The notes beneath the pieces are model-generated. The model had not been told where the DNA came from and made no database searches. It saw only the letters and a list, made by a program, of their open reading frames with translations. The position numbers were made by a program, and so were the translations under genes. From Bacteroidia bacterium (GTDB lineage: Bacteria; Bacteroidota; Bacteroidia; AKYH767-A; 2013-40CM-41-45), in contig JBBRND010000001.1 in assembly GCA_038230515.1 (NCBI GenBank), positions 88,464 through 152,463 of the forward strand: a stretch of 64,000 bases of DNA, read 5' to 3'. Shown piece after piece: positions 15,556 through 64,000 of this stretch (position 1 is the stretch's first letter; each line of letters begins with the position of its first letter).

Positions 15556-15576
15556 CCCAATCGAATAACGAATCCT

Positions 15577-24863: not shown

Positions 24864-26510
24864 TTACTGCTTCACAAATTTACTTCGGAAAACTTTTGTG
24901 CCGCTTGTTACTTCGAGGTAATACATTCCTGAAGCAAAGAGTCTACAGTCCACAGTCCTCAATCGGCAGTCCACAGCCGAGAAAACTTTTTCTCCCATGA
25001 GATTGTAAATTGAAATGTCTATTTCTTTTTTGTCTTTGAGAAACGAACCTGTTATTTCTAATTTATCAACGACAGGATTAGGATGTATTTCTGCGGACTG
25101 TGGATTGAAGACTGCTGACTGCGCGGAAGCGATGACATTAAACACTGCCGCCTCCACCTCACACCCATTCGCATCTGAGCATACTACATTTTAATCCCCG
25201 CTTGATGGTGCTACATAAAAATAATTTGTTGCACCGTTGATGATATTGCCATTGAAGTACCACTGATAAGTTGCTGCTCCTGCATTTGCAAAGAGTGTAT
25301 CTCCGCTTTGGGCGATTCCCTGCGGTGCGGGTGGAGGATAAACTATAATGTAATTGCTAAGTAAAAGTGTATCGCTGCCGTTTGTGTTTGTTGCTATAAG
25401 TTGCACATCGTAGCTGCCGGAGTTTGCATAGCAAATGTTTGTTGGATTGGTGGCTGTGCTTGTATCGGGTGTGGCTCCGGGGAATGACCATTGGTAAGAA
25501 GTTGCGTTGGAGGAGAGATTGAGAAAGGAAGTGCAGGTGCCGGGGCAGATATGATTTGGTGCACTGAAAGATGCTATAGAATTACAAGCATTAATATCAG
25601 GTGTATATTCCCAAAAATCATTATAACATGTAGCCCCCCCATACCTGCCTAATCCAATATATCCCTTACTCGATATAGAAAAATAGGCCAGCTCATCCCG
25701 GATTGTACCAGGAAAATTTGTTTTTTGAACCCATGCATTCGTAGTCGGATTATATTCCCATAAATCATTTTGAAACGTTCCGATAGCGGGTCCTTCACCG
25801 CAACCATAATATCCTTTATCGCAAATGGCAAATGCAGCAGCATCACCTCTTGAGCCTCCCGCAAAATTTACTTTCTGAGTCCATGAATCGGTAATACTAT
25901 TGTACTCCCATAAATCAGATAAAAACACTCCAGCATAACCGCAAATAATATAAGCATTCGTTCCGATTACGAAACAATTTGCATCTTCCCTTGCCAGTCC
26001 GGTAAGGTTTGTCTTCTGCGACCATGTATCTGCAGAGGGATCGTACTGTCAAATATCATTTGAGGGTGCGCCAGTGCTTATATAGCCAAAATTACCTATT
26101 GAAAAGCCCGCTGCTGCATACCTGGCACCTCCTGCAAAATTTGCTTTGGGTGGCCAGTTATTTGCTATTGTATCATATTCCCAAAAATCATTTACCGAGT
26201 TGAATAAACTATCTCTTCCGAGCCCTGCATACCCTTTATTGCCTACTGAGAAACCTACGGGTGCCTGCCTACCAAGACCACCATAATCTGCTTTCTGTGT
26301 CCATACATTTGTTGCAGGATCATACTCCCAGAATTCTTTGACGTTATTTATGAAACAGGAATAACCACATCCTACATATCCTTTAGTTCCAATGGAAAAA
26401 CAAAAAGGATAATTATAGCCCATTCCCGGATAAGAAGTTTTCTGGGTCCAGTAATCAGCCCGTGCAATCAGCGAACAAAAAATAAAAACTCCAACCAAAA
26501 CTTTTTTCAT
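24864..26510 (-). pseudogene. T9SS-sorted Kelch-like beta-propeller / PKD-domain protein interrupted by two in-frame stop codons
   Basis: Track ORFs 26049-26510, 25191-25928 and 24864-25157 are all in one frame. TGA at 26049-26051 sits where the repeat D-[FL]-W-E-Y-[DN]-P requires Trp. TAA at 25191-25193 sits where SGD-Y-NVVCSDANGC expects Tyr. N-terminal signal peptide and C-terminal T9SS CTD are both present. Confidence 0.75.
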
Positions 26511-39598: not shown

Positions 39599-42500
39599 AT
39601 GTGCAGAACTTTTGCTGCTGTATTTTTTATTCTTAGTCCGTTTTTTTCTTTTTCGCAGATGAGCAACCTGCGTGAGAAATTTATTTCCGCCAAGGCGGAT
39701 ACAGTTCAGCTTGATTCGGGGAGTGTTGTTGCGAATTCAATTTTTGTGTTGAATGAAGGAAAGGTTTTAGATAAAAAGGCTTACGCAGTAGATGCAGCGA
39801 AATCAATTCTCATCTGGCAAAAAAAAATCGATGAGTACAAAAATATTTCCGCTGACAGTTTGGAAATTCATTTTCGTGTTTTCCCATTTTCATTTTCTGA
39901 AAGTGTGCAGCACAAAGACATTGGCAGAATTTCAAAACAATCTGCAAACGGAATGAATCAGTATGTGTACAATCCGGCAGAATCTGAGCCCTCTTTTTTT
40001 AAGTATGAGGGATTGCAAAAAGCAGGAAGCATTTCACGGGGAGTAACGTTTGGAAATAACCAGGATGTGTTTGTGAATTCAAGTTTGAATTTGCAACTGG
40101 CAGGAAAATTAAATGATCAGGTAAATATACTAGCTGCAATCACGGATGAAAATATTCCCGTGCAACCAGAAGGAAACACACAACAGATTCAGGATTTCGA
40201 TAAGGTATTCATTCAGCTTTACAACGATAACAGTAAACTGATTGCAGGAGATTTTGAATTGAAGCGTCCCGAAAGTTATTTCATGAACTTTTTCAAGAAG
40301 GCTCAAGGTGGACTTTTCACAAACAACAGTGTATTGGGAAAAGCAATGGCAAACGGCAAACCTAAATTCGTGAACAGAGTTGGGTTAAGCGCAGCGGTAT
40401 CAAAGGGGAAATTTGCGCACAACACCGTTGCTGCTCTTGAAGGAAACCAAGGACCATATCGTTTAACCGGGAGCAACAATGAATCATTTATCATCGTGCT
40501 CGCAGGTACTGAGAAAGTTTACATTGACGGGCAACTGATGAAACGCGGTTTGCAATATGATTACACAATTGATTACAATGTTGCGGAACTCACGTTTACT
40601 GCAAAGCGGTTGATCACAAAAGAGGCGCGCATCACGGTGGAGTTTGAATATTCAGAAAAAAGCTATGCTCGCTCACTTCTTTTTCTCAACGATGAAATAG
40701 AGAGTGAAAAAATAAAAATAAAATTCAATGCATACAGCGAACAGGACAGCAAGAATCAGCCGTTGCTAATTGATCTTGACAGCGCGAAAAAAGCGGTGAT
40801 GGCAAGTGTTGGCGACAGTATTCAAAATGCTTTTTACCCAACTTACGATAGTGTGCAATACAATGCTGATGAAATTCTTTACAAGAGAATAGATACAACG
40901 ACTTCCCTCGGAACCTATCCGGAAATTTTTGTTTACTCAGCAGATAGCGCACACTGGCGAGTTACATTTTCAAATGTTGGATTGGGCAATGGCGATTACG
41001 TGCAGGACAGTAGCAGCGTGAATGGCAGGGTGTTTAAATGGATAGAGCCGGTTGCAGGTATTCATCAGGGTTTGTATAAACCGGTAGGATTGTTGGTTAC
41101 ACCGAAAAAACAACAACTATTTACGCTGGTAACGGACTTGAAACTTTCAAAAAATAATACGGCAGGTTTTGAAGTAGCGATGAGTAATTACAATGTCAAT
41201 TTGTTTTCAAAGAAGGATAGAGGCAATGATCTTGGTTATGCGGGAAAAGCATATTATCAGAACATTACCTCACTTGGAAGCGATTCAGTGAAATCATGGA
41301 GGCTAACCTCCAATCTCAATTACGAATTTGTGAACCGCGACTTCAAACCGATTGAGCGTTTTCGCAACGTTGAATTTGAGCGCGAATGGAATCTTGGTAC
41401 AACTTCCATTTATCATGATGAATATATTGTAGCAGGCCAGGTTGCGTTGTCGAAATTAAATCTTGGCAATGTTTCTTATCAGTTGAAAAGTTTTCAGAAA
41501 GGAAGCGATTACAACGGATTGCTTCACAATGCAGGATTGCTTGCAACTGTCGCAAAGTTCACACTCAATACTACAGGAAGTTTGCTCACCACCAAAGGTG
41601 CAACAGTGAAAACGGAATACTACAAGCACAGCGTTGATTTATCGAGAGGAGTCTGGAAGCTGATTATCGGGACAAAAGAAAACACGGAACATAACGTGTT
41701 TAAAAAAATTGTTGGTGATTCGCTTACTGTCGCAAGTTTTTCTTTTCAAGAATACAGCGGATACATCAACACAAAGGACTCATTGAAAAATAAATTCGGG
41801 TTGAATTACAAAAAGAGATACGATGATCGTGTTGCAAATAATCAGTTCAAACGTGCTACCGATATTGATGAAATAAATTTTTCAGCAGAATTCACGAAAG
41901 AACAAAACAATCAGTTGCGGATTTATACTTCATACCGGAATTTAAAAGTGCTTGATTCCGCACTTACACAGCAGGCAGAAGCAAAAACACTGTTGAACAG
42001 GATTGATCACAACCTGATTTTGTGGAAAGGAGTAATTAGCGCAACGACATATTACGAAGTAGGTACAGGTCAGGAACGAAAACTTGAGTATTATTTTCTT
42101 CAAGTTCCTGCCGGACAAGGTTCTTACATTTATCGCGGTGATGCAAACGCTAATGGAGTTAAGGATCTTGACGAGTTTGAAGTTGCAGCGTTTGCTTATC
42201 AGGCTGACTACATAAAAGTTTTTACACCAACCAATCAATACATCAGCACGCGTACGAATCAATTCAACGAAGTGTTCAACATCAACCCCTCAGCTGCCTA
42301 CAAATCGTTTCAAGGGAGGCAGCAAGTTCTTTCGAGATTCTCAAATCAGCTTTCCGTTCGCCTCGATAAAAAAACAAAAGAGGATGATGCGTTTCGTTCA
42401 TTGAATCCGTTTGATCAGAAAATCGGAGACAGTTCTTTAGTGTCAACCAACTCAAGCTATCGCAATACGCTTTACTTTAATCGCTCATCCTCTGTGTTCG

Positions 42501-43093
42501 GCTGTGATGCAACCTGGACCAAGAACGAAGGAAAGACACTTCTCATCAATGGATTCGAAACGCGTACACTTACTTCTTATGAAGGAAATACGCGATGGAA
42601 TCTTTCGCGGCTGCTGTTGGTTACTGCAAACTATCAGCATAACGATAAAGTAAATGGCTCGGAATTTTTTCCTGCACGCAATTATCATCTCTTAACAGAT
42701 CATGGAGAACCGAAGTTGAGTATTCAGCCAGGAACAGCATTCCGTACTTCGTTGTCGTATGAATATTCAATCAAGAAAAATGTTTATGGAACTGGAGGGG
42801 AGAAGGCAGAGCAAAACAAACTCGGGCTTGAAATGAAATACAACACCACAGGTACTGGCAGCATTTCTGCAAAAATAAATTACATAGGAATTATTTTTAA
42901 TGCGGAGGATAATTCTTCACTCGCTTATGAAATGCTGGATGGATTGCACAAGGGAAAAAATTTTACATGGAATACATCCGTTCAACGATCTCTTGGAAAT
43001 TCGATTCAACTCAGTTTAAATTATGACGGAAGAAAATCGGAAAACAACAAAGCCATTCATACAGGAGGGGTACAGGTGAGAGCTTATTTTTAA
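39599..43093 (+). CDS. large (1164 aa) uncharacterised outer-membrane protein
   Basis: Signal peptide MCRTFAAVFFILSPFFSFSQ, beta-rich composition and a C-terminal ...GGVQVRAYF typical of OM beta-barrels. Confidence 0.75.
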   Translation: MCRTFAAVFFILSPFFSFSQMSNLREKFISAKADTVQLDSGSVVANSIFVLNEGKVLDKKAYAVDAAKSILIWQKKIDEYKNISADSLEIHFRVFPFSFSESVQHKDIGRISKQSANGMNQYVYNPAESEPSFFKYEGLQKAGSISRGVTFGNNQDVFVNSSLNLQLAGKLNDQVNILAAITDENIPVQPEGNTQQIQDFDKVFIQLYNDNSKLIAGDFELKRPESYFMNFFKKAQGGLFTNNSVLGKAMANGKPKFVNRVGLSAAVSKGKFAHNTVAALEGNQGPYRLTGSNNESFIIVLAGTEKVYIDGQLMKRGLQYDYTIDYNVAELTFTAKRLITKEARITVEFEYSEKSYARSLLFLNDEIESEKIKIKFNAYSEQDSKNQPLLIDLDSAKKAVMASVGDSIQNAFYPTYDSVQYNADEILYKRIDTTTSLGTYPEIFVYSADSAHWRVTFSNVGLGNGDYVQDSSSVNGRVFKWIEPVAGIHQGLYKPVGLLVTPKKQQLFTLVTDLKLSKNNTAGFEVAMSNYNVNLFSKKDRGNDLGYAGKAYYQNITSLGSDSVKSWRLTSNLNYEFVNRDFKPIERFRNVEFEREWNLGTTSIYHDEYIVAGQVALSKLNLGNVSYQLKSFQKGSDYNGLLHNAGLLATVAKFTLNTTGSLLTTKGATVKTEYYKHSVDLSRGVWKLIIGTKENTEHNVFKKIVGDSLTVASFSFQEYSGYINTKDSLKNKFGLNYKKRYDDRVANNQFKRATDIDEINFSAEFTKEQNNQLRIYTSYRNLKVLDSALTQQAEAKTLLNRIDHNLILWKGVISATTYYEVGTGQERKLEYYFLQVPAGQGSYIYRGDANANGVKDLDEFEVAAFAYQADYIKVFTPTNQYISTRTNQFNEVFNINPSAAYKSFQGRQQVLSRFSNQLSVRLDKKTKEDDAFRSLNPFDQKIGDSSLVSTNSSYRNTLYFNRSSSVFGCDATWTKNEGKTLLINGFETRTLTSYEGNTRWNLSRLLLVTANYQHNDKVNGSEFFPARNYHLLTDHGEPKLSIQPGTAFRTSLSYEYSIKKNVYGTGGEKAEQNKLGLEMKYNTTGTGSISAKINYIGIIFNAEDNSSLAYEMLDGLHKGKNFTWNTSVQRSLGNSIQLSLNYDGRKSENNKAIHTGGVQVRAYF

Positions 43094-43116: not shown

Positions 43117-43147
43117 TCAGATAAATGGCAAAATATTTTTGAAACAG

Positions 43148-44649
43148 ATGTACAAAACATCGGATTTATTTTTCTACATCGGGATAACAGGTGTTATTCT
43201 GTTTTCATTTTTTTCTTTTTCATACGCTTATTATCCGTTCTTCAATTCTGATTCTGCGCTCTCTGTTCTGATGGCGTATCATTACCATCTTCCGGAAGAT
43301 ATTTATTGCTGGGGACAAAACCGTGGCGGCACTTTTGAAATGATGATCGCTCATTTTTTTATTTCTCTTTTTCATTCAAGTCCGGTTATTACTGCATCAA
43401 TAATTCATTACCTCATCCTAATCGCAGGTTTTTTTGCAGGATTTCATTTTATCAGAAAATCTTTTTATCGTTTTGCGCTTGCAGTGCTTTGGTTTTTTCC
43501 GTCAGGATTCTTTATTGAAATAATTATTTACCAATTCAGCGTTCAGTTCAGCTTATTCATGATCGCAATTTTCTTTTTGAGCAAATCATTTTCTGTTTCT
43601 GCAAAGAAAAATTTCTTTCTCTCTTTGTCATTTCTGTTTATGATTCTGAATGTGTGGGTTCTTGACCTTGGAATTATTCCGACAACTTTTCTTTTTCTGT
43701 TTTTGAGCACAACTATTTTAGTAAAAAACAATAAAGGAAGAGCAACTCTTCAAGGGATTAAATATTTTTCTTCAAAACCGACTCTTTTTCTCTCCGCTTT
43801 GTGGATTGTTTCAGGAGCCGCATTTATTTATTGGGCAAAGCATCTCACGAATTATACCATTGGATACTCTGAAACATCCCCGAACAATCCTTCCGAAATT
43901 TATTTTTCTCTCCTCTCCATTTCGAAATCGTTCTCTGAGGCGTTTCTTTTTCATAGGAAATTTTTTTCAGATAGCATGCTCGTTTATTCAGTTGCAATAT
44001 TTTTCGTTTTCTATTTATTTTATTTTATCAAACCGAAACAAACTTATTCCCTTGTAATTTTTTTTCGCTCATTTTTCTCGGGCAATCTCTGTTCGGGGTT
44101 TTAATTCTTCTTCTTTCCAGACAGGTTTACCTGAACGATGTACCCGTGCGATACTTTGCCGGATCGTATCTTTCCTTTGCAATTTTTATTATCATGAAAC
44201 TTGATTCAATAGAAAGCCAGAAAGTTCTATTCAAACTTCCGATTATCGTAGTAATCACGTGCTTTATTTTCAACTCTCTGCACGAAACTTATTTACCTGA
44301 AAAACTTCCTCCAATGATAAATGATTTTCAAAAGCTGAATTCGTTGAAGCCGGTTGGCATAATTGGTAGTTACTGGAACTCGTATGTGTTCGCAGCTATT
44401 GATCCTGAACATATCAAAGCAACTCCTTACGATAAGGATATGTTTCGAAACAGAGAACTGGCTAACGAAGTACTAAATCAACCCAAACTTCTACTCGTGC
44501 AAAATGAATGGCTTATAGATTTTCCCGATTCAATTCCTCAATTCGGAAAAATGCTTGTGAGAAAAGGAAATCCTTTTTTACTCGGGACTTACATCACGTG
44601 GCAGGAAATTAATGATGTAATGGCTTGCGAATATTACAAGGTATTGTAA
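43148..44649 (+). pseudogene. polytopic membrane protein split by a 1-nt frameshift in a T8 run
   Basis: Track ORFs 43139-44104 and 44146-44649. The second frame is open back through 44058 and reads as a TM helix (SLIFLGQSLFGVLILLLS). T8 at 44058-44065; one extra T would fuse the two into about 500 aa. Confidence 0.6.
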
Positions 44650-44701: not shown

Positions 44702-45628
44702 TTATTTCATATCAATGGTCGAAGTACCAATGAGGTTACCGATGTGATAAATCTCCACGTTATATTTTCCTTTAACAAACGGTGTACCTTTCGCCCAAAT
44801 TACTTCAACAGGTAAATCGGCATTTGCATATTCAAGAGTTTGTTTCATTGTGTACACTAGCGACTGTCCATGACTGTCAAAGGTTGCCTGATCGCTTGAC
44901 ATTACAGCACCGTCTGGCCCGAGGACGCGCACATACAAATCAACCTGTCCAGCATCTATCACCCTGTTTTCGGTAAGCAAAAAACTTGTACGAACCTTTT
45001 GAACTTGTTTCGCTTTCAGTGTAACAAGCGCTTTTCCGTTACTCTTATAGCGCAGTCCTTCGGTTTTGATATTCATTGCTTTCAAAACGCTTCCCGCAGC
45101 CACTTTGCCCGCAAGTTTTGAATTCTGATCATTCAGATTCTGGACTTTACTTTTCTCATCACTAAGTGTTGAACTCAGATTCTGGTTCTCTGCTTGCAAT
45201 AAGGTATTCACTTTATTGAGTGAATCAATTTGAGCCATGTACATATTATTCATCTCACGAAGTTGTGCCATCTCTTCTTTTGCTTTCGCAATTTGTGCAG
45301 GCCCACCAATGGCAATAAGCCGTTGTATCTCCGCTACCTTCGCCTTAATTTCCTCATCCTTCGATGAAAGTTCTGTCTCCAGATTGGCATTTTCTGATTT
45401 CACTTTTTCATACTCATTCTTGATCTGGTCGAGTTGTGCCTGAACGGCATCCCTCTCGGCTTTGGTGGTTATAATCTGTTGATTCGCTTGTTCAAGATTG
45501 GTTTTCTTCTCGAAGAACTGCCAAAGTAAGAGCCCGTTAGTGCCGAGTAGAATGGCAATTACAATAATGACGATCCCCTTCTTGGGACCTTGTTCTTGAA
45601 TATCTGATTTAGTAGAGTCGTTATCCAT
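44702..45628 (-). CDS. membrane-anchored coiled-coil protein, uncharacterised
   Basis: N-terminal TM segment (IVIIVIAILLGTNGLLLW), about 150 aa of heptad-rich Q/E/K/N sequence and a beta-rich C-terminal domain. Confidence 0.7.
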   Translation of the reverse strand: MDNDSTKSDIQEQGPKKGIVIIVIAILLGTNGLLLWQFFEKKTNLEQANQQIITTKAERDAVQAQLDQIKNEYEKVKSENANLETELSSKDEEIKAKVAEIQRLIAIGGPAQIAKAKEEMAQLREMNNMYMAQIDSLNKVNTLLQAENQNLSSTLSDEKSKVQNLNDQNSKLAGKVAAGSVLKAMNIKTEGLRYKSNGKALVTLKAKQVQKVRTSFLLTENRVIDAGQVDLYVRVLGPDGAVMSSDQATFDSHGQSLVYTMKQTLEYANADLPVEVIWAKGTPFVKGKYNVEIYHIGNLIGTSTIDMK

Positions 45629-57422: not shown

Positions 57423-58949
57423 CTATTCTATCACAAACTTTCGGGTTGCTGATTGCATGCCGCTTGTGGTGAGTTGAAAAAAGTAAAGCCCATCACTCAA
57501 ATTTTTTCTGTCAATTTTTATCTCGCTTGAAGTGTTCCCGTGTAAAGATTCTACGAGCGCACCCATGGTGTTGTAAATTTTGAGTTCGTAATTTTTATTT
57601 TCTGAGTTATTGATGATAAGGGTGGCGGTGGTGTGGAAGGGGTTGGGGGAAATCACAAGAACCTTATCAGTGGAAACAAGATTTGAAGTCGAATTTATAT
57701 TGTAGCAATAAGTAGTTTCATTTAAGATGACCGGAAGAATTGTTTGGGTATATGTTACGACAGTTGATATGTTGACTGATGTTTGTAAAGTAATAGGGGA
57801 TGAGTTTACCATTAATGGATGATGTGTTATTAAAACCGGACTCATGTTGCAGGTTCCTTGATTTGATGAATCTGCCTTGACGATGTAAATATCGGTGGAA
57901 TCAGGACCGCTTATAGAGCCCGCAGAGACAATGCTACCATCAGAGAGAGAATCAATAAAATCTAACTCCGAAGGATTAATGCTGTTTATAAAAGATTGAA
58001 CAATATTTCCTAACGAGTCCGTTTCAATAAATCCAGGGTATATGTATTGCAAAGAATCATAATAATATCCGTTACAAAACAAATGCCCTGAACTTTTTAC
58101 AACGCACGAATTTAACGCCTGAAAATTGTCGTACTGTTCTTGCCATAAAACTGAACCCAAGGAATCATAACAAATTAACGAATAGGGGCTGGGTTCAATG
58201 AAAGAATTTGAACCCGTACGATAGCAATGAGAGGATAAGCCACCACCAAAAGTAAGGTAATTTGTTGCAAAGGAATGAATAGCATTTCCTAGTGTATCAA
58301 GTTTCATAGTAAAGAGGAAATAATTTGAACTAAGATTCGGTTCGTAAATTCCGGACATTAAAAAATTACCATCATCGGTTTGCACAAATGATTGGCCGAT
58401 TAAAGAAGATGATGAATCAATGTTGTATGATTTGCACCATTGTGAATTCCCTAATGAATCTGTTTTTAGAATAAGCCATCTGTCTATGGAGTCATTGTAG
58501 CTGGCCCAAAGTATAAATCCAAGATCTCTTGTTTTATAAACTCGATAAAATCCTCCGGGGAATGATGGTATTGAATAACTATTGCTCCAAATGAGGTTAC
58601 CTGCTGTATCAAGTTTAATCAAAATAAATTCCGAAAGGTTGCTATAAGATACAAGAATATTTTGGTCATAAGTTTTTTCGAGATGGAAAGGAGCAAAACC
58701 TTGATTATAAAAAGTAGTTGATATTCTTTTCGACCAAACAACATTTCCGATCTCGTTTATTTTCAGAAGCAAAAATCCTGAATCGGGAAACATATAATTA
58801 TTTGCACTTACAACACTACTGTTATCATTGAATGTGATTATATCGTTGGCTGATTCATTACGAATAGTACCGTAGCCCTTCTGAAAAGTAACCTGTCCTT
58901 CCACAAAAAAAGAAATGCAACAAAATAAAAAGAGTAATTTTTTTTTCAT
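57423..58949 (-). CDS. T9SS C-terminal-target-domain secreted protein (repetitive beta-propeller-like body)
   Basis: Signal peptide, repeated D..GN..WSK motifs and a C-terminal CTD (ISPNPFHTTATL...KIYNTMGALV...GLYFFQL...KFVIE). Confidence 0.8.
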   Translation of the reverse strand: MKKKLLFLFCCISFFVEGQVTFQKGYGTIRNESANDIITFNDNSSVVSANNYMFPDSGFLLLKINEIGNVVWSKRISTTFYNQGFAPFHLEKTYDQNILVSYSNLSEFILIKLDTAGNLIWSNSYSIPSFPGGFYRVYKTRDLGFILWASYNDSIDRWLILKTDSLGNSQWCKSYNIDSSSSLIGQSFVQTDDGNFLMSGIYEPNLSSNYFLFTMKLDTLGNAIHSFATNYLTFGGGLSSHCYRTGSNSFIEPSPYSLICYDSLGSVLWQEQYDNFQALNSCVVKSSGHLFCNGYYYDSLQYIYPGFIETDSLGNIVQSFINSINPSELDFIDSLSDGSIVSAGSISGPDSTDIYIVKADSSNQGTCNMSPVLITHHPLMVNSSPITLQTSVNISTVVTYTQTILPVILNETTYCYNINSTSNLVSTDKVLVISPNPFHTTATLIINNSENKNYELKIYNTMGALVESLHGNTSSEIKIDRKNLSDGLYFFQLTTSGMQSATRKFVIE

Positions 58950-59010
58950 CTCTCAGAATTTTCTTTTGTAAATCTATACAAAAAACTCTCCGCTTCCTAA
59001 AATATTTGGC

Positions 59011-59048
59011 GAAAACAAAACCGCCCCTCTCATTGCTGAAAGAGGCGG
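59011..59048 (-). terminator. rho-independent terminator after atpG
   Basis: Minus strand: CCGCCTCT...AGAGGGGCGG stem with a 2-nt bulge, followed by TTTTGTTTT. Confidence 0.5.
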
Positions 59049-59072
59049 CTGTGTTTTACTGCTTAGTGTTAT

Positions 59073-59957
59073 TTATCCGTTGAGGGCTTCTGCACCGGCA
59101 ACGATTTCAAGAATTTCTCCTGTAATGGCTGCCTGTCTGCGTTTGTTGTATTCGAGGCGGAGGGCTTTGAGAATTTCTCCTGCATTGTCGGTTGCTTTGT
59201 TCATGGCTGTCATGCGGGCACCGTGTTCGGAAGCGTGAGAGTCGAGCAATGCTTTGTAGAGTTGAATCTTGATTGTCTTTGGGATGAGTTCGAGAACGAG
59301 GTCTTCTTTGTTGGGTTCGAAGATGTAATCGTTGATGGCTTTGCTTTCGTTTGCTTTTTTAGCAGGAGGTACAATGGGTAATACCTGTTCGGTAATTACA
59401 TATTGAACTGCGGCATTCTTAAACTGGTTGTACACTACTTCTACTTTATCGTAGTTGCCGTCTGCAAATTCCTTCATCACTTTTTCTGCGATGAGAGAAA
59501 CATTGGCGAAGTTGAGCTTTGTGTAAATGTCGTTGTGATTTCCTGCAGACAGGTTTGCGTGTTTGCTGAAAAAATCGTTTGCCTTCTTTCCGATGGAAAG
59601 TACTTTTACATTTCCTTCTTTTGCTTGTGCAGAATAATCTTCGCGGATGAGTTTGTTTACTGTGCGATTCACATTTGCATTGAAGCCACCGCACAATCCG
59701 CGGTTGGAGTTAACAGCAATGATCAATACTTTGTTTACAGGACGCGCTGCCGCAAACACACCACCGGTGCTGCTGTCCAGCGTTTCAGAAATATTTTCCA
59801 TGATGGCGCGGAGTTTTGCTGCATACGGTCGCATTTGCACAATTGCTTCCTGCGCGCGCCTGAGCTTGGCTGCACTCACCATCTTCATCGCCTTTGTAAT
59901 CTGCTGTGTGCTGATTACGGATGCGATGCGGATTCGGACTTCTTTTAAATTGGCCAT
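59073..59957 (-). CDS. atpG: F0F1 ATP synthase subunit gamma
   Basis: N-terminus LKEVRIRIASVISTQQITKAMKMVSAAKLRRAQ and C-terminus ITGEILEIVAGAEAL. Confidence 0.95.
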   Translation of the reverse strand: MANLKEVRIRIASVISTQQITKAMKMVSAAKLRRAQEAIVQMRPYAAKLRAIMENISETLDSSTGGVFAAARPVNKVLIIAVNSNRGLCGGFNANVNRTVNKLIREDYSAQAKEGNVKVLSIGKKANDFFSKHANLSAGNHNDIYTKLNFANVSLIAEKVMKEFADGNYDKVEVVYNQFKNAAVQYVITEQVLPIVPPAKKANESKAINDYIFEPNKEDLVLELIPKTIKIQLYKALLDSHASEHGARMTAMNKATDNAGEILKALRLEYNKRRQAAITGEILEIVAGAEALNG

Positions 59958-59964
59958 GTTGTTT

Positions 59965-60560
59965 CAGTTGGCAGTTGGCAATTTGCAGTGAGCAAATGAA
60001 CAGCCAAATTTTTAGTGTGCAATTGGCAGTGTGCAGTATGCAAAGTGAACAGCCAAATAGCGCATTGATTTATTTTTTATTCAATTATTTTTTCCCCTTT
60101 TGCGAACTGCTAACAGCTATTTGCTAACTACTTTTTATTGTTTTGATATTTTTCAGGATTCTCAATCATGTGATTCAACATTTTTCCTACTTCCTCCGAT
60201 TTAATAATTAAATCTTTATATATTGATTCAACAATGTATTTACAAGATAAGGAATAATCTAACCAAACCTGCGTCTCCGCATTTTCCATATCGGCATCGC
60301 TTGACTTGCTAACGAAGTGCGCCTGGTACTGTCTTTTGCGATACCCCTCACCGATATTCGAACAAACTGATCTTGATGACCTTCTTATCTGTGATATCAA
60401 TCCGTACTTTTCTTCATTCGGAAATTTCTTTGTGATCTCAAATATTTCCATTGAAAGTTTGAATGCTTTCTTGTAAACAGTCAGATCACGAAATGTTCCC
60501 ATTTGTGCCAGTGGTCAGTTTGCAAACTTTTTTGGGCTGCTAATTGCAAACTGCCAACTG
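59965..60560 (-). mobile_element. inverted-repeat-bounded four-helix-bundle ORF cassette A (IVS-like insertion between atpA and atpG)
   Basis: Arms CAGTTGGCAGTTGGCAATT (59965-59983) and AATTGCAAACTGCCAACTG (60542-60560) are complementary at 18 of 19 positions. The flanks are heptamer-phased words. Mobility is inferred, not shown. Confidence 0.4.
60128..60502 (-). CDS. four-helix-bundle protein (23S rRNA intervening-sequence protein family)
   Basis: 124 aa with FRDLTVYKKAFKLSMEIF and QIRRSSRSVCSNIGEGY, characteristic of the family (PF05635/TIGR02436 type, from memory). Confidence 0.85.
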   Translation of the reverse strand: MGTFRDLTVYKKAFKLSMEIFEITKKFPNEEKYGLISQIRRSSRSVCSNIGEGYRKRQYQAHFVSKSSDADMENAETQVWLDYSLSCKYIVESIYKDLIIKSEEVGKMLNHMIENPEKYQNNKK

Positions 60561-60572
60561 CATTTTGCCAAT

Positions 60573-62153
60573 CTAGCCCTTGTATTTCGGTACTAACTCT
60601 GATGCCACTTTTTCAAGTACAGAAGTAATGCTGTCATCAAGCGTTCCTTTCCTAAGTGCATCGAGCGTAGAGCGATGTTGTGCATCAAGTAATCCGACAT
60701 ATTCAATTTCAAATTCACCTATTCGTTTTACGGGAACATCGCGAAGCAATCCTTTTGTACCGAGATAAATAATTGCGATTTGTTTTTCTACGGGAATCGG
60801 AGAGTACTGACCTTGCTTCAGAATTTCCACATTGCGAATACCTTTTTCAAGAGTAGCTTTTGTTGATGCATCGAGATCGGAACCGAATTTTGAGAACGCT
60901 TCAAGTTCGCGGTATTGCGCCTGGTCAAGCTTTAGTGTACCCGCAATTTTCTTCATGGATTTGATCTGTGCATTACCACCCACGCGTGATACAGAGATAC
61001 CCACGTTGATGGCGGGACGAACACCTGAGTTAAATAAATTCGACTCAAGGAAAATCTGTCCGTCAGTAATGGAGATTACGTTTGTGGGAATGTATGCTGA
61101 TACGTCACCTGCCTGCGTTTCGATAATCGGAAGAGCCGTTAATGATCCGCCACCTTTCACCATGTGTTTGATGGATTCAGGAAGATCGTTCATCTGGCGC
61201 GCAATCTCATCAGTGTTGTTGATTTTCGCTGCGCGCTCGAGCAATCTTGAGTGAAGATAAAATACATCACCCGGGTATGCTTCGCGTCCCGGAGGTCTGC
61301 GGAGGAGAAGAGAAACTTCGCGATATGCAACTGCCTGTTTGGAAAGATCATCATACACGATCAATGCCGGACGACCGGTGTCGCGGAAAAATTCTCCGAT
61401 AGATGCACCTGCCATTGGTGCGAAGAACTGCATTGGTGCAGGATCGGCTGCTGATGCAGCAACGATGACTGTGTAAGCCATTGCTCCGTGTTCGGTCAAT
61501 GTCTTTACGATCTGTGCAACGGTAGAACCTTTTTGTCCGATTGCAACATAGATGCAAAACACCGGCTCACCTTTTTCATAAAATTCTTTTTGGTTGATGA
61601 TGGTGTCAATCGCAACAGCAGTTTTTCCGGTCTGGCGATCACCAATGATCAACTCACGCTGACCGCGACCGATTGGAATCATTGCATCAATCGGTTTCAA
61701 ACCTGTTTGCAACGGCTCGTTCACCGGCTGACGATAAATTACTCCAGGTGCTTTGCGCTCCAGCGGCATTTCATATACATCGCCTGTGATCGGTCCTTTG
61801 CCGTCAATCGGTTTTCCAAGTGAATCAACCACGCGCCCCAACATTCCTTCACCAACTTTTATGGATCCGATTTTTCCGGTACGCTTTACTACATCACCTT
61901 CTTTAATGTCGTTCGAACTTCCGAGCAACACAGCACCCACGTTGTCTTCTTCAAGATTCAACACGATGCCTTGCAAGCCGGTTTCAAATTCAATCAACTC
62001 TCCTGATTGAACTTTTGTGAGTCCGTATATGCGCGCGATACCGTCACCTACCTGTAACACGGTACCAACTTCTTCGAGTTCAGTTTCTGTTTTGAAGCCC
62101 GCGAGTTGTTGTCTTAAAATCGCTGATACTTCATCCGGTCTAACTTCTGCCAT
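60573..62153 (-). CDS. atpA: F0F1 ATP synthase subunit alpha
   Basis: Walker A GDRQTGKT and the 526-aa canonical alpha sequence. Confidence 0.97.
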
Positions 62154-62162
62154 TTTTATTTA

Positions 62163-62605
62163 TGATTTATGATTCTTGATTTATGATTGAAATCCTTCAA
62201 TCTCTATTTTTTATTTTGATTTATTTTATTTCGAACTGTTATTGCTGATGCCGCAAATATTGCTGTTAACTCATCTGCTTCTTTCCACAATTTTTTTATC
62301 TCTTCATCTTTTATCATTTCTGATTCTTCAAGTATTTCAAACCAGTACGCACATTCATCTGATTCTTCTTCGCAGATCGAAATTCTGGAAGCAAAATCTG
62401 CGTCTGTTCTCGAACGGCAGGTGCTTCTGTAATTTGCTCCGACCGATGTACCACTCTTTGCCAACTGATATTCTATCACTGATGCTGCTTTTGATTTCGG
62501 CATCTTCTCAAGGAACTTCAAAACATCAATCGCAAATTTTTTCGTTCTCTTCTTTAACTCGACACTGTTCATGGTTGCTTGTCTTTAATCAAGAATCATA
62601 AATCA
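62163..62605 (-). mobile_element. inverted-repeat-bounded four-helix-bundle ORF cassette B (IVS-like insertion between atpH and atpA)
   Basis: Perfect 19-bp inverted repeat TGATTTATGATTCTTGATT (62163-62181) / AATCAAGAATCATAAATCA (62587-62605). Mobility is inferred, not shown. Confidence 0.45.
62204..62572 (-). CDS. four-helix-bundle protein (23S rRNA intervening-sequence protein family), second subtype
   Basis: 122 aa with RTKKFAIDVLKF, QLAKSGTSVGANYRS and ESDECAYWFEIL motifs. Confidence 0.8.
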   Translation of the reverse strand: MNSVELKKRTKKFAIDVLKFLEKMPKSKAASVIEYQLAKSGTSVGANYRSTCRSRTDADFASRISICEEESDECAYWFEILEESEMIKDEEIKKLWKEADELTAIFAASAITVRNKINQNKK

Positions 62606-62615
62606 GCAATGTGCG

Positions 62616-63173
62616 TTAGTTCTTCCGCACGTAAGACGTATCCACCAACTCCTGCCTCAACTGCCGCAGCTCGCTTTGGATACTTGCATCGTATTGTTTA
62701 TCGCCCACGCGGAGAACAAATCCTCCGATGAGGTTCTTGTCAACTTTTTCCAACAATTCAATTTCGCTGTTTAAACTTTCTTTGATGATTTTGAAAACAT
62801 CGCTTCGCAATTTATCATCAAGCCCAATAGCAGAAGTAACAATTGCGGTTTGAATTCCTTTGAACTCTTTATAAAGCCGGATAAATTCTTTGGCAATTCC
62901 TTCAAGATGCGACTCCCGACCTTTCTTGGTGATGATCTCGAAAAAAGAAATGGAAAGCGTATTCATCTTTCCTGCAAATACTTTTTTCAAAATGGTCAGT
63001 TTCTTATCAGCGTTGATAATTGGACTGCCAAGCAAAAGAGAAAGATCTTTGTTGTTCTCGCACACGGAAGCAAGCAACTTCATGTCTTCCATAACTGCTT
63101 CAAGCACTCCTCTTTCTTTTGAAAGATCGAGAAGAGATTTCGCGTATCGCTTGGCTACTTTAGTTTCAATCAT
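62616..63173 (-). CDS. atpH: F0F1 ATP synthase subunit delta
   Basis: 185 aa with VAKRYAKSLLDL at the N-terminus (OSCP/delta family). Position in the operon fits. Confidence 0.9.
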   Translation of the reverse strand: MIETKVAKRYAKSLLDLSKERGVLEAVMEDMKLLASVCENNKDLSLLLGSPIINADKKLTILKKVFAGKMNTLSISFFEIITKKGRESHLEGIAKEFIRLYKEFKGIQTAIVTSAIGLDDKLRSDVFKIIKESLNSEIELLEKVDKNLIGGFVLRVGDKQYDASIQSELRQLRQELVDTSYVRKN

Positions 63174-63177
63174 CTTC

Positions 63178-63672
63178 TTAGTTCAATGAAATATCCTTCA
63201 TCAAATTTTCCATCAGAGATTTTTGTTTCTGATCATTGCTCAACTCCTGACGAAGAATTTTCTCTGCAATTTCGATACTCATGCTTGCCACCTGATTTTT
63301 TATTTCAGCAATGGCAGCATTCTTTTCTGTGTTGATAGTTTCGCGCGCCTGTGCCATTATCTTGTTCGCTTCTGTCTGCGCTTTTGTTTTTGATTCGGAG
63401 ATGATGGCATCTTTTGTATCACGCGCTTCTTTCAACATGGCATCGCGTTCTGCGCGCGCCTGTTGAATCAGCTTTTCGTTATCTGCCTTCAGCGAAGCCA
63501 TTTCTTCTTTTGCTTTCTTCGCAGTGTTCAGCGCTTCAGAAATAGATTCTTCGCGCGTCTTCAACGAGGCAAGAATGGGTTTCCATGCAAACTTCTTCAA
63601 CAGAAAAAGCACGATTAAGAATGATACGAGCATCCAGAAGAGCAGCCCGATATCAGGTGTTACTAATTTCAT
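63178..63672 (-). CDS. atpF: F0F1 ATP synthase subunit b
   Basis: N-terminal TM segment plus a long charged helix. Position in the operon fits. Confidence 0.9.
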   Translation of the reverse strand: MKLVTPDIGLLFWMLVSFLIVLFLLKKFAWKPILASLKTREESISEALNTAKKAKEEMASLKADNEKLIQQARAERDAMLKEARDTKDAIISESKTKAQTEANKIMAQARETINTEKNAAIAEIKNQVASMSIEIAEKILRQELSNDQKQKSLMENLMKDISLN

Positions 63673-63715
63673 TGGGTGAAATTTTTAAAGCCGCACCAAA
63701 AAATTCTCTTGTGTC

Positions 63716-63790
63716 ATGCCGAACTTATTTCGGCATCTGCTAAATCAAAGTATGTGCTTTGATTGAAGGGATGCTGACATTCGTCAGCAT
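63716..63790 (-). promoter_or_regulatory. two 8-bp stem-loops in the atpE-atpF spacer
   Basis: ATGCCGAA (63716-63723) / TTCGGCAT (63729-63736) and ATGCTGAC (63771-63778) / GTCAGCAT (63783-63790). Confidence 0.4.
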
Positions 63791-63828
63791 GACAACGCTT
63801 ATTTTGATGCGAGCGGTTAAACTTTTAA

Positions 63829-64000
63829 TTAAGCAAGACCAACAATGAACGCAAGAGCGACTGCTGCAAGAGCAACCCCTTCAACCAACGCTGCTGCAAC
63901 GAACATGTTCGAAACCAGGTCGCCTTTCATTTCGGGCTGACGAGCCATTGATTCCAATGCACTGCCACCGATTCTGCCGATACCGATACCTGCACCTACT
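63829..64000 (-). CDS. atpE: F0F1 ATP synthase subunit c, 5' end beyond window
   Basis: Hand translation ...GAGIGIGRIGGSALESMARQPEMKGDLVSNMFVAAALVEGVALAAVALAFIVGLA-stop, the canonical c-subunit hairpin with R-Q-P loop. Confidence 0.9.
   Translation of the reverse strand, partial: VGAGIGIGRIGGSALESMARQPEMKGDLVSNMFVAAALVEGVALAAVALAFIVGLA

What the first reader, a model, noticed from the sequence alone, without database searches (positions are those of the whole stretch)
59958..60572. Cassette A: four-helix-bundle (23S-rRNA-IVS-protein family) ORF bounded by an 18/19 inverted repeat fills the atpA-atpG gap
The 615-bp gap between the atpA stop (60573) and the atpG ATG (59957) holds a 124-codon ORF on the atp strand. 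The ORF carries the family motifs FRDLTVYKKAF and QIRRSSRSVCSNIGEGY. The gap is bounded by CAGTTGGCAGTTGGCAATT (59965-59983) and AATTGCAAACTGCCAACTG (60542-60560), which are complementary at 18 of 19 positions. The arms lie 7 nt from the atpG ATG and 12 nt from the atpA stop. The flanks are built from heptamer-phased words, about 14 in register from 59965, including a duplicated GCAAA(T)GAACAGCCAAAT. In the polycistronic RNA the arms could form a duplex of about 19 bp that loops out the entire ORF. That is the architecture of 23S rRNA intervening sequences. Those sequences gave this protein family its name and are excised by RNase III at the stem formed by their flanks (established). I infer an IVS-like, possibly mobile, cassette resident inside an essential mRNA operon. 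Cleavage at the stem would separate the atpA and atpG messages and leave atpG with a very short leader. The family is also related to the Avd accessory protein of diversity-generating retroelements, but no reverse transcriptase is present here.
Basis: partly seen in the sequence, partly recalled or inferred. Interest (0 to 1): 0.85.

Follow-up and report, generated by a model that had tools for sequence, protein, structure and literature searches.

The report
IVS-type hairpin cassette in atp operon
The gap between two ATP-synthase genes holds a small conserved gene bracketed by inverted runs of 7-base repeats, the same design as the elements that interrupt 23S ribosomal RNA, and the same cassettes turn up between genes of many operons in several bacterial phyla.

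Summary
ORF 60128-60502(-) is a PF05635/TIGR02436 four-helix-bundle protein. The arms are 18/19 complementary, extending to 22/24, and are built of in-phase heptamers.

A second cassette of the same design fills the atpH-atpA gap, with a perfect 18-nt inverted repeat.

- **Relatives:** 77 of the 78 genomes where the atpA-atpG gap could be read have 4-193 nt there; one holds a different family ORF.
- **Other sites:** ORFs 63-85% identical, with the same CAGT-core heptamer arms, sit co-directionally in atpH-atpA, nuoH-nuoI, kinase-regulator, MoxR-DUF58 and other pairs.
- **Other subfamilies:** these carry other heptamers, but nearly always as inverted arrays. This holds in Nostoc plasmids, in Xanthomonas accB-accC (the published GGGAATC repeat), and in a genuine Azospirillum 23S IVS.
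- **Selection:** the ORF is under strong purifying selection.

Best reading: a promoter-less, IVS-type cassette that has moved over evolutionary time. Its arms should pair in the operon RNA and be cut by RNase III, as shown for the Coxiella IVS. That step is inferred here, not shown.

I found no paper linking this protein family to the unexplained bacterial heptamer repeats.

The parts
60573..62153 (-). atpA (ATP synthase alpha), the gene upstream of cassette A
   Evidence: Pfam ATP-synt_ab E=9e-77
60538..60572 (-). Cassette A 5' heptamer array: ATTGGCA AAATGCA GTTGGCA GTTTGCA ATTAGCA. It starts right after the atpA stop.
   Evidence: sequence
60537..60560 (-). Cassette A 5' arm of the outer inverted repeat (22/24 with 59965-59988; core 18/19)
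   Evidence: It pairs with the 3' arm in the MFE and centroid RNA folds.
60509..60525 (-). Reverse-orientation heptamers that can form a local hairpin with 60544-60560 (15/17). This competes with the long-range stem.
   Evidence: pair I6
60128..60502 (-). Cassette A ORF: 124-aa four-helix-bundle protein (23S rRNA IVS protein family)
   Evidence: PF05635 E=1.9e-33; TIGR02436 E=2e-29. PDB 2rld E=2.6e-9. dN/dS about 0.06 where it could be calculated.
60100..60127 (-). Forward-orientation heptamers just after the ORF stop (TTAGCAA ATAGCTG TTAGCAG TTCGCAA)
60014..60048 (-). Inner copy of the 3' reverse array. It is part of a 49-nt tandem duplication and pairs 80% with the 5' arm.
   Evidence: D3, I3
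59965..59999 (-). Cassette A outer 3' heptamer array (TCATTTG CTCACTG CAAATTG CCAACTG CCAACTG). The arm proper is 59965-59988 and ends 7 nt before the atpG ATG.
59073..59957 (-). atpG (ATP synthase gamma), the gene downstream of cassette A
   Evidence: Pfam ATP-synt E=8e-97
62582..62610 (-). Cassette B 5' arm (perfect 18-nt core 62587-62604, GATTTATGATTCTTGATT), 11 nt after the atpH stop
62204..62572 (-). Cassette B ORF: 122-aa four-helix-bundle protein, about 25% identical to the cassette A ORF
   Evidence: PF05635 E=9e-17; TIGR02436 E=1.5e-21
62154..62188 (-). Cassette B 3' heptamer array AATCATA AATCAAG AATCATA AATCATA AATAAAA (perfect core 62164-62181), ending 10 nt before the atpA ATG
   Evidence: The closing stem appears in the MFE and centroid folds.
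62616..63173 (-). atpH (delta/OSCP), the gene upstream of cassette B
   Evidence: Pfam OSCP E=6e-45
59019..59050 (-). Terminator-like hairpin (14 pairs, T-run) after atpG. No terminator-like site lies in either cassette gap.

Best explanation
Cassette A, and its neighbour cassette B, belong to a widespread class of promoter-less 'ORF-in-a-hairpin' elements. Each is a PF05635 four-helix-bundle gene bracketed by two inverted arrays of about four 7-nt repeats. This is the same element type that forms the ORF-bearing intervening sequences of 23S rRNA.

The cassette sits in the sense orientation in the spacer between two co-transcribed genes and is transcribed as part of the atp mRNA.

**Shown here:**
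- family membership of the ORF;
- the inverted heptamer architecture;
- the absence of any family ORF at this site in 77 of the 78 relatives where the gap could be read;
- the same ORF-plus-arm unit at other sites and in other operons;
- co-orientation with the neighbouring genes;
- purifying selection on the ORF;
- a predicted long-range stem.

**Inferred:** in the polycistronic RNA the two arrays pair into a stem of about 20-25 bp. Its base lies 12 nt after the atpA stop and 7 nt before the atpG start, so the whole ORF is looped out.

The stem is then a substrate for RNase III, as demonstrated for the Coxiella IVS. Cleavage would excise the ORF-bearing loop and leave the atpA and atpG messages either separate or held together by the remaining basal duplex.

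The tandem repeats give many alternative pairing registers, which makes the stem robust to slippage.

The cassette spread to new intercistronic sites over evolutionary time by an unknown mechanism. Recombination between arrays of the same heptamer type, including ORF-less hairpins, is one candidate.
For: **1. Family.** PF05635 at 115 bits and TIGR02436.

**2. Arms.** 22/24 for cassette A, perfect 18 nt for cassette B.

**3. Predicted RNA structure.**
- The MFE and centroid folds of both gaps keep the long-range closing stem (z=-3.1 and -2.5).
- No terminator-like site lies inside either gap; a terminator-like hairpin follows atpG.

**4. Site occupancy.**
- The atpA-atpG gap could be read in 78 of 80 relatives. 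77 hold 4-193 nt with no family ORF; L019 (477 nt) holds a different family ORF.
- The closest relative, L188 (atpA 94.5%), has 84 nt.
- L100 has the cassette at the same site as the window.
- L003, L082 and L113 have it in the atpH-atpA gap, with homologous arms.

**5. Other operons.** The same ORF subfamily (63-85% aa) with CAGT-core arms sits in nuoH-nuoI, His-kinase/response-regulator, MoxR/DUF58, ExbD and other pairs.

**6. Statistics on the non-redundant cassettes.**
- Inverted-repeat score median 14 versus 8 in controls, p=4e-23.
- Lag-7 autocorrelation about 0.5 versus about 0.25 at other lags.
- CAGT appears 255 times upstream and ACTG 249 times downstream, mostly spaced 7 nt apart.
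- 56/57 upstream and 59/63 downstream neighbours are co-directional.

**7. Arms change together.**
- AGTTGGC/GCCAACT, AGTCGGC/GCCGACT and AGTAGGC/GCCTACT are seen as matched pairs.
- Arms of the same cassette pair better than arms taken from different cassettes (p=3e-7).

**8. Other subfamilies** have other heptamers, in all but one case inverted.

**9. Real IVS.**
- Azospirillum L186 has the same design inside 23S rRNA.
- The Coxiella IVS has heptamers in its stem, and RNase III cuts there (PMC4990558).

**10. Selection.** dN is 0.14-0.28; dS exceeds 2 or cannot be calculated.
Against: - There are no transcript data, so pairing, cleavage and translation are all untested here.
- The 5' flank can also fold locally (60509-60525 with 60544-60560). 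A translating ribosome ending at the atpA stop would cover the base of the stem.
- Across cassettes the arms are only about 79% complementary. The commonest mismatch is G/A. Sense G-U mismatches (122) only modestly outnumber A-C (89), so there is no clear RNA-strand signature.
- Matched changes in the two arms would also arise if both arrays were binding sites for one protein.
- Splitting an essential operon mRNA looks costly.
- In Coxiella the ORF is decaying and probably untranslated. Here it is as conserved as its housekeeping neighbours, so the protein must do something this model does not explain.
- Synonymous sites are saturated between copies, so no recent transposition was caught. No target-site duplication was found.
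Confidence: 0.6

Rival explanations
1. **DNA-level mobile element.** The inverted heptamer arrays are terminal inverted repeats made of reiterated protein-binding sites. They would be bound by the toroidal pentameric four-helix-bundle protein itself or by a host enzyme. The cassette would move or be copied as DNA, by transposition, hairpin or cruciform-directed recombination, or gene conversion between arrays. ORF-less hairpins would be its non-autonomous derivatives, as in MITE/REP systems. RNA pairing would be incidental.
For: - TIR-like symmetry, with the same ORF-plus-arms unit in many contexts.
- ORF-less hairpins of the same heptamer type, such as L082 5034-5113 and window 24933-25122.
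- A 4-nt conserved core plus a 3-nt variable spacer looks like reiterated binding sites.
- Both PDB relatives were deposited with 5 chains per entry, and the Xanthomonas one is described as a homopentamer (PMC4990558).
- Each arm carries about 4 units.
- Each protein subfamily keeps its own heptamer type.
- Purifying selection on the ORF fits a protein needed for the element's own propagation.
Against: - No catalytic domain or known transposase fold; the protein is a 120-aa helical bundle.
- No target-site duplication (and inspection).
- No transposase or integrase among the 28 window ORFs scanned.
- Near-absolute co-orientation with host operons is not needed for a DNA transposon. It points instead to dependence on read-through transcription.
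- Synonymous divergence is saturated between copies.
Confidence: 0.2
2. **Ribonucleoprotein regulator.** The pentameric protein binds the heptamer arrays in the mRNA, one unit per subunit, as TRAP binds spaced triplets. Binding would control its own translation and the stability, processing or coupling of the flanking cistrons. The cassette would then be a domesticated post-transcriptional module rather than a selfish insert.
For: - The ORF is as conserved as its neighbours: hbB is 88% identical between the window and L188, against atpH 75% and atpG 84%.
- dN/dS is about 0.06 where it could be calculated.
- The arrays hug the upstream stop codon (median 9.5 nt) and lie just ahead of the next start.
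- Single-orientation heptamer arrays sit directly upstream of start codons elsewhere in the window (14525-14568, 53617-53662).
- The same placement is reported in Beggiatoaceae (PMC4679880).
- The core-plus-spacer periodicity.
Against: - On the RNA the upstream (CAGU) and downstream (ACUG) motifs are different sequences. One RNA-binding surface would not read both.
- Hosts of the cassettes are functionally unrelated operons.
- Most relatives do without it at this site.
- No RNA-binding data exist for stand-alone family members.
Confidence: 0.12
3. **Fixed accessory gene.** The ORF is a vertically inherited accessory gene of this clade's ATP-synthase operon, and the inverted repeat is an ordinary intercistronic regulatory hairpin.
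For: Several relatives carry a family ORF somewhere in the atp operon (L003, L010, L019, L082, L100, L113, L188).
Against: - The position varies: atpB-atpE, atpH-atpA or atpA-atpG.
- The subfamily varies.
- 77 of the 78 relatives with a readable atpA-atpG gap have no family ORF there.
- Close homologues sit in nuo, two-component, MoxR, ExbD, accBC and rRNA contexts.
Confidence: 0.03
4. **DGR remnant.** The ORF is an Avd accessory protein or a remnant of a diversity-generating retroelement.
For: A weak match to bAvd (PF22296, 39.7 bits) and to NF033474 (31.4 bits). The two families are homologous (PMC10053308).
Against: - Both scores are below the curated cut-offs of 40 and 80 bits.
- No reverse transcriptase is among the 28 window ORFs scanned, nor among the called genes next to the homologues looked up.
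Confidence: 0.02

Closest known systems
ORF-bearing intervening sequences (IVS) of 23S rRNA. Coxiella burnetii helix-45 IVS with S23p (Warrier et al. 2016, PMC4990558). Leptospira IVS (Ralph & McClelland 1993, as cited there). Azospirillum lipoferum IVS, seen here as L186.
   Same: - Same protein family in the loop, in sense orientation to the host transcript.
- Bounded by inverted repeats built of tandem heptamers: GACAGAT x3-4 in Coxiella; CAGAGGA CGGATGA ... / ... ATCCGTC CTCTGTC in L186.
- Sporadic distribution, which implies horizontal or intragenomic spread.
   Different: - The host RNA here is a protein-coding operon mRNA, and the site is an intercistronic spacer rather than a 23S helix.
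- RNase III excision is demonstrated for the Coxiella IVS but untested here.
- The Coxiella ORF is decaying and apparently untranslated. Here it is under strong purifying selection.
Bacterial heptamer repeat arrays of unknown function: cyanobacterial STRR (from memory, Mazel 1990); TAACTGA repeats (MacGregor 2015, PMC4679880); GGGAATC / GGGGA(C/T)T repeats (Rehm et al. 2015, PMC4692102)
   Same: - Tandem 7-nt units with a conserved core.
- About 4 units is typical.
- Located between co-directional genes, close to stop and start codons, and transcribed.
- Frequent convergent (inverted) pairs in Xanthomonas.
- The Xanthomonas family gene studied here is flanked by exactly the GGGAATC repeat.
   Different: - Those papers treat the arrays as stand-alone repeats and name no associated ORF. 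Searches of both texts for 'S23', 'helix bundle' and 'intervening' found nothing.
- Many arrays are single-orientation or ORF-less.
Avd accessory protein of diversity-generating retroelements (bAvd, PF22296)
   Same: Homologous four-helix-bundle fold. Pentameric assembly is described for bAvd (from memory) and for XCC0516.
   Different: No RT and no template or variable repeats are nearby, and the Avd model scores fall below their cut-offs. Avd genes are not described as being bracketed by heptamer arrays.
REP/RAYT 'REPtrons' and MITE/autonomous-element pairs
   Same: A small gene flanked by inverted copies of a short repeat that also occurs, without the gene, in many intergenic sites as hairpin-forming units.
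   Different: The encoded protein is not an HUH/Y1 or DDE transposase. The repeats are tandem heptamer arrays rather than single palindromes. Orientation relative to host genes is strictly sense.
Integron gene cassettes
   Same: Promoter-less ORFs inserted co-directionally and expressed from an upstream host promoter. A hairpin-forming repeat marks the cassette boundary.
   Different: There are two arms rather than a single attC, no integrase or attI platform, and the cassettes are scattered singly in housekeeping operons.

Membership tests
PF05635 / TIGR02436 four-helix-bundle (23S rRNA IVS protein) family | Profile-HMM score above the curated cut-off over the full domain | tested here: met
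   - hbA: PF05635 115.3 bits (cut-off 33.8), residues 5-110 of 124; TIGR02436 101.9 bits (cut-off 24).
- hbB: 61.6 and 76.6 bits.
PF05635 / TIGR02436 four-helix-bundle (23S rRNA IVS protein) family | Four-helix bundle assembling into a toroidal homopentamer | not tested
   Sequence match only: PDB 2rld (E=2.6e-9) and 2gsc (E=6.7e-8), each deposited with 5 chains. The pentamer is described in PMC4990558, citing Lin 2006. No structure was predicted here.
23S rRNA intervening sequence (IVS) element | Inserted within a 23S rRNA gene (helix 25 or 45) | tested here: not met
   It lies between atpA and atpG, and no rRNA or other Rfam family is found in 58900-63900. By contrast, L186 lies inside RF02541.
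23S rRNA intervening sequence (IVS) element | ORF of the S23p family, sense to the host transcript, in a loop closed by flanking inverted repeats | tested here: met
23S rRNA intervening sequence (IVS) element | Tandem heptamer repeats in the stem arms | tested here: met
   Five units in each arm. The same feature is seen in L186 and in Coxiella.
23S rRNA intervening sequence (IVS) element | Excision from the precursor RNA by RNase III at the stem | not testable with these tools
   Only predicted folds are available. Transcript end mapping or an enzyme assay is needed.
Diversity-generating retroelement (Avd component) | Score above the curated Avd model cut-offs | tested here: not met
   NF033474 31.4 bits against a cut-off of 80. 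PF22296 39.7 bits against 40.
Diversity-generating retroelement (Avd component) | Adjacent reverse transcriptase | tested here: not met
   The 28 window ORFs scanned include no RVT domain. The immediate neighbours are atp genes.
Transposon / MITE-type element | Terminal inverted repeats | tested here: met
Transposon / MITE-type element | Target-site duplication and an encoded or nearby transposase | tested here: not met
   No direct repeat abuts the arms of either cassette (sequences). The ORF is a helical bundle, and no transposase is among the window ORFs scanned.
Heptamer simple-sequence arrays (STRR / TAACTGA / GGGAATC class) | Tandem 7-nt units with a conserved core, intergenic, between co-directional genes | tested here: met
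   The Xanthomonas member carries the published GGGAATC unit.

The most novel reading that the evidence does not exclude
The PF05635 toroidal pentamers may be the missing protein partners of the enigmatic bacterial heptamer repeats (cyanobacterial STRR, TAACTGA, GGGAATC), with roughly one 7-nt unit read per subunit.

Gene plus inverted arrays would form a self-propagating 'hairpin cassette'. It rides on host transcripts, whether rRNA or operon mRNA. Over time it would seed the ORF-less hairpins and single arrays that litter the intergenic regions of Cyanobacteria, Bacteroidota, Xanthomonas and Beggiatoaceae.
Probability: 0.3. Interest if true: 0.9.

Novelty: new variant of a known kind. Interest (0 to 1): 0.72.

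Why it matters
Two old puzzles meet here.

- **The IVS protein.** The function of the '23S rRNA IVS protein' family has been unknown since the 1990s. The two searches made with the window's own ORFs alone returned more than 7,000 homologues.
- **The heptamer repeats.** The origin and role of bacterial heptamer repeat arrays, known since about 1990, are also unexplained.

The evidence here shows that family ORFs in Bacteroidota, Cyanobacteriota, Pseudomonadota and Gemmatimonadota are bracketed by inverted short tandem arrays. This holds for both mRNA-borne and rRNA-borne copies. Each subfamily carries its own repeat type.

That gives a concrete, testable model: RNase III processing of an ORF-bearing stem-loop inside essential operons, possibly with protein-repeat recognition.

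It also gives tractable test systems, namely Xanthomonas accB-XCC0516-accC and cultured Mucilaginibacter.

The finding bears on genome annotation too. These 'four helix bundle protein' genes mark inserted cassettes, not operon members. It also raises the question of how an essential operon tolerates such an insert.

Tried and rejected
- **Source genome.** It is not in genome contigs; the best atpA match is 91%. Exact insertion boundaries therefore could not be set by comparison with a conspecific.
- **Spacer comparison.** Spacers of relatives share no alignable sequence with the window outside the arms.
- **Target-site duplication.** None was found for either cassette.
- **RNA versus DNA pairing.** I compared sense G-U mismatches with A-C mismatches in the arms. 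The result, 122 versus 89, is too weak and is confounded by base composition.
- **Rfam.** There is no family in the region, only a chance lncRNA hit at E=0.19.
- **More family ORFs in the window.** Only the two were found, by tblastn and by an iterated HMM.
- **RT, transposase or integrase in the window.** None was found among the 28 ORFs scanned. Four of those 28 have no Pfam match.
- **dS between copies.** It is saturated, so the insertions could not be dated.
- **Literature.** Searches for PF05635, TIGR02436, S23p and 'four helix bundle protein' found no paper that describes these genes in operon spacers or links them to heptamer arrays. The library lacks most subscription journals, so prior description cannot be excluded.
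- **G-quadruplex reading (Rehm et al.).** It does not fit the A/T-rich or CAGT-core arrays seen here.
- **Exception.** L182 (Oscillatoria plasmid) has arrays in direct rather than inverted orientation, and its neighbours are on the opposite strand.
Full report
**1. Observation**

The minus strand of 59-64 kb carries atpF, atpH, atpA and atpG.

The 615-nt atpA-atpG gap holds a 124-codon ORF, 60128-60502(-), here called hbA.
- It matches PF05635 (E=1.9e-33, 115 bits, cut-off 33.8) and TIGR02436 (E=2e-29).
- It falls below the cut-offs of the Avd models.

The quoted arms are complementary at 18/19, extending to 22/24 at 59965-59988 / 60537-60560. They lie 12 nt from the atpA stop and 7 nt from the atpG ATG.

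Both flanks are heptamer-phased.
- The 5' flank reads ATTGGCA AAATGCA GTTGGCA GTTTGCA ATTAGCA.
- The 3' flank ends CTCACTG CAAATTG CCAACTG CCAACTG.
- A 49-nt (7x7) tandem duplication gives a second, in-register 3' array.

Such runs are almost unique to this gap in the 64 kb: 4 of 5 GCA-phased runs lie here, against 0.1 expected.

**2. A second cassette**

The atpH-atpA gap holds another PF05635 ORF, 62204-62572(-), here called hbB. It is only about 25% identical to hbA.

A perfect 18-nt inverted repeat brackets it (62587-62604 / 62164-62181). The repeat is made of different heptamers: GATTTAT GATTCTT GATT ... AATCATA AATCAAG AATCATA AATCATA.

Its arms lie 11 nt after the atpH stop and 10 nt before the atpA ATG.

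**3. RNA-level predictions**

Folding each whole gap as RNA keeps the long-range closing stem in both the MFE and the centroid structure.
- Cassette A: -157 kcal/mol, z=-3.1.
- Cassette B: -101 kcal/mol, z=-2.5.

Neither gap has a terminator-like site. A 14-pair terminator-like hairpin follows atpG. No Rfam family matches.

A competing local hairpin exists in the 5' flank of cassette A (pair I6).

**4. Occupied versus empty sites**

I examined 80 Bacteroidota atp loci (atpA 77-91% aa).
- The atpA-atpG gap could be read in 78 of them.
- 77 hold only 4-193 nt.
- One, L019 (477 nt), holds a different family ORF.

The closest relative found is L188 (atpA 94.5%, hbB 88%).
- It has hbB at the same atpH-atpA site, with the same TGATT-type arms.
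- Its atpA-atpG gap is 84 nt and ORF-less. It is itself an inverted heptamer hairpin of another type, GTTATTG.../...AATAAC.

Other relatives place the hbA-type cassette as follows.
- L100 (atpG 86%) has it in the atpA-atpG gap.
- L003, L082 and L113 have it in the atpH-atpA gap, with homologous arms.
- In L082 the atpA-atpG gap is an ORF-less hairpin of the same heptamer type. Its 3' end is nearly identical to the window's: TTGCCGACTGCCAACTGAAAGACAATG against TTGCCAACTGCCAACTGAAACAACATG.

L010 carries yet another family ORF between atpB and atpE.

The site is therefore variably occupied, and the unit 'arms plus ORF' is found at different sites.

**5. The same unit in other operons**

hbA has more than 5,600 homologues at E<1e-5. 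The top 120 are 69-85% identical.

Look-ups and a metagenome scan gave 78 non-redundant cassettes, 63-82% identical among the metagenome loci. Pfam assignment of the neighbours gave these contexts:
- nuoH-nuoI;
- His-kinase / OmpR-type regulator (about 12);
- a small ORF / geranylgeranyl-reductase-like gene (about 12);
- MoxR / DUF58 (5);
- ExbD (4);
- atpH-atpA (4);
- others.

Neighbours of at least 100 aa are co-directional in 56/57 cases upstream and 59/63 downstream.

**6. Statistics of the arms**
- The best upstream/downstream inverted-repeat score has median 14, against 8 for 93 control genes in the same loci. Scores of 12 or more occur in 47/67 versus 0/93 (p=4e-23).
- The intergenic flanks have lag-7 autocorrelation of 0.48-0.52 against about 0.25 at other lags, with echoes at 14 and 21.
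- CAGT occurs 255 times upstream (ACTG 24 times). ACTG occurs 249 times downstream (CAGT 38 times). Successive cores are 7 nt apart in 146 and 174 cases.
- The median is 4 units per arm.
- The upstream array begins a median of 9.5 nt after the upstream stop codon.
- The arms change together: AGTTGGC/GCCAACT, AGTCGGC/GCCGACT, AGTAGGC/GCCTACT.
- Arms of the same cassette pair better than arms from different cassettes (13.5 versus 10, p=3e-7).
- This co-variation fits selection for pairing. It fits equally well a single protein that reads both ends.
- The sense G-U versus A-C mismatch count (122 versus 89) does not settle RNA against DNA.

**7. Generality across subfamilies and phyla**

In 16 of the 17 other family ORFs whose flanks I read, the gene is bracketed by inverted short tandem arrays of its own type.
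- **L095, nuoF-nuoG:** GAGTTCG AGGTTCT TGGTTC / GAACCAAGAACTTCGAAC, 18/19.
- **L172:** TTAGnnn / nnnCTAA.
- **L010:** AATTAAG AATTCAC / CTTAATT.
- **hbB relatives:** L188 at the same atpH-atpA site as the window, and L190 in Band_7/M24, both keep the TGATT type. L193, at 52% identity, has AATTTTG / AAAATTC.
- **Cyanobacterial plasmids:** five of six copies carry inverted arrays abutting the start and stop codons. In Nostoc these are (AGCAGGG)n and (CCCTGCT)n.
- **The exception:** the sixth plasmid copy, L182, has arrays in direct orientation.
- **Gemmatirosa:** period-8 arrays.
- **Xanthomonas:** the crystallised XCC0516 type sits between accB and accC. It is flanked by GGGAATC GGGAGTG GAGAATC GGGAATC ... 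CCCATTC CCCATTC CCGACTC CCTATTC.
- **L019:** arms with partial complementarity.

The Xanthomonas unit is the GGGAATC repeat of Rehm et al. 2015. They reported 70-75 convergent pairs per genome, between aligned ORFs and transcribed. Searches of that text for 'S23' and 'XCC0516' found nothing (PMC4692102).

The Azospirillum lipoferum copy (L186) lies inside a 23S rRNA gene (Rfam RF02541, 2155 bits). It has CAGAGGA CGGATGA CAGAGGA CGGAGGA ... ATCCGTC CTCTGTC TTCTGTC ATCCGTC around it.

**8. Link to known biology**

For the Coxiella 23S IVS, which carries this same ORF family, Warrier et al. 2016 reported (PMC4990558):
- 3-4 tandem heptamers (GACAGAT) just upstream of the ORF, variable in number between strains;
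- excision by RNase III in vitro;
- an ORF that is probably untranslated and decaying.

They also relay the older idea (Ralph & McClelland 1993) of a mobile element whose ORF serves its mobility.

MacGregor 2015 (PMC4679880) described TAACTGA heptamer arrays just upstream of start codons in Beggiatoaceae, Cyanobacteria and Bacteroidetes. No protein partner was identified.

I found no paper that places this family in operon spacers or ties it to heptamer arrays. The library is incomplete.

**9. Selection**

Against the other hbA-type copies, dN is 0.14-0.28. dS exceeds 2 or cannot be calculated. Where a ratio could be computed (4 pairs), dN/dS is about 0.06.

hbB is 88% identical between the window and L188, where atpH is 75% and atpG 84%.

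The protein is therefore functional and old. No recent jump was caught.

**10. Interpretation**

*Shown:* an IVS-type cassette, made of a PF05635 ORF between inverted heptamer arrays. It is promoter-less, in sense orientation, variably present, and found as a unit in many operons and in rRNA.

*Inferred (confidence about 0.6):* the arms pair in the atp transcript, loop out the ORF and are cut by RNase III, as in the rRNA members. This leaves atpA and atpG either on separate messages or tethered by the residual duplex.

*Rivals:*
- a DNA-level TIR element whose arrays are reiterated binding sites for the pentamer (0.2);
- a domesticated RNP regulator (0.12);
- a fixed atp accessory gene (0.03);
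- a DGR remnant (0.02).

The strict co-orientation with host transcription favours dependence on the host RNA. The strong conservation of the protein is not explained by the pure 'RNA element' view, and it keeps the protein-repeat hypothesis alive.

**11. Verdict**

The novelty lies in two things. The element type sits in mRNA operons rather than in rRNA. And there is a general, apparently undescribed, association between this protein family and heptamer arrays.

Noticed in passing
window 62154-62615 (-): A second cassette of the same design lies in the atpH-atpA gap. It is a 122-aa PF05635 ORF (about 25% identical to cassette A's) between a perfect 18-nt inverted repeat made of AATCATA-type heptamers. 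L113 keeps the same AATCAAGAATCATAAATCATAAATA array before atpA, although an hbA-type ORF occupies its gap.
   Followed up: yes
window 24933-24972 and 25095-25122: An ORF-less inverted pair of CAGT-core heptamer arrays, the same type as cassette A's relatives, about 120 nt apart. On the minus strand it lies inside a T9SS C-terminal sorting-domain ORF (24864-25157, Por_Secre_tail E=3e-10). That ORF is separated by a stop or frame break from the Kelch/PKD ORF 25191-25928, so the gene may be disrupted.
   Followed up: partly
window 14525-14568: A single-orientation heptamer array, GATTCAC GATTCAC AATTCAC AATTAAG, sits directly before a likely ATG of the M28 peptidase gene, after the carboxyltransferase gene. 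The heptamer type is the same as the arms of the L010 atpB-atpE cassette.
   Followed up: partly
window 53617-53662, 51502-51534, 48689-48732: Further heptamer arrays at or near gene junctions: TTCGGTT x3 at the GAF/Big_5 junction, CTCAAAC-type at gltX/folB, and CTTGATA-type near the start of a methyltransferase ORF.
   Followed up: no
L082 5034-5113; L188 4488-4580; L010 about 2690-2830: ORF-less hairpins made of inverted heptamer arrays fill atp intercistronic gaps in relatives. The L082 hairpin is homologous to the window's cassette A arms. They look like 'empty' versions or remnants of cassettes.
   Followed up: partly
L186 (Azospirillum lipoferum 4B, AZO_p2 13192-15939): A family ORF (34% identical to hbA) sits inside a 23S rRNA gene, flanked by inverted heptamer arrays. 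The stretch carries no annotation in the plasmid gene table used here.
   Followed up: yes
L199/L201 2424-2873 (Xanthomonas): The crystallised XCC0516-type protein is encoded between accB and accC. It is flanked by inverted GGGAATC heptamers, with the downstream array running straight into the accC ATG.
   Followed up: yes
L182 (Oscillatoria nigro-viridis plasmid) 1320-2050: An exception. Long G-rich GGGAGAGT-type arrays flank the family ORF in the same (direct) orientation, and both neighbouring genes are on the opposite strand.
   Followed up: no
L180 1474-2898 (Nostoc sp. UHCC 0926 plasmid pn4): A tyrosine recombinase gene lies 45 nt downstream of a cassette and is co-directional with it. 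This is a single instance.
   Followed up: no
L095 397-879 and 3001-3384: Two cassettes of different subfamilies and heptamer types sit in one nuo operon, at nuoF-nuoG and nuoH-nuoI. This parallels the two cassettes in the window's atp operon.
   Followed up: partly
window 39599-43093, 43139-44104, 44702-45628, 49040-49912: Four sizeable ORFs (1164, 321, 308 and 290 aa) have no Pfam match at E<=1e-5.
   Followed up: no
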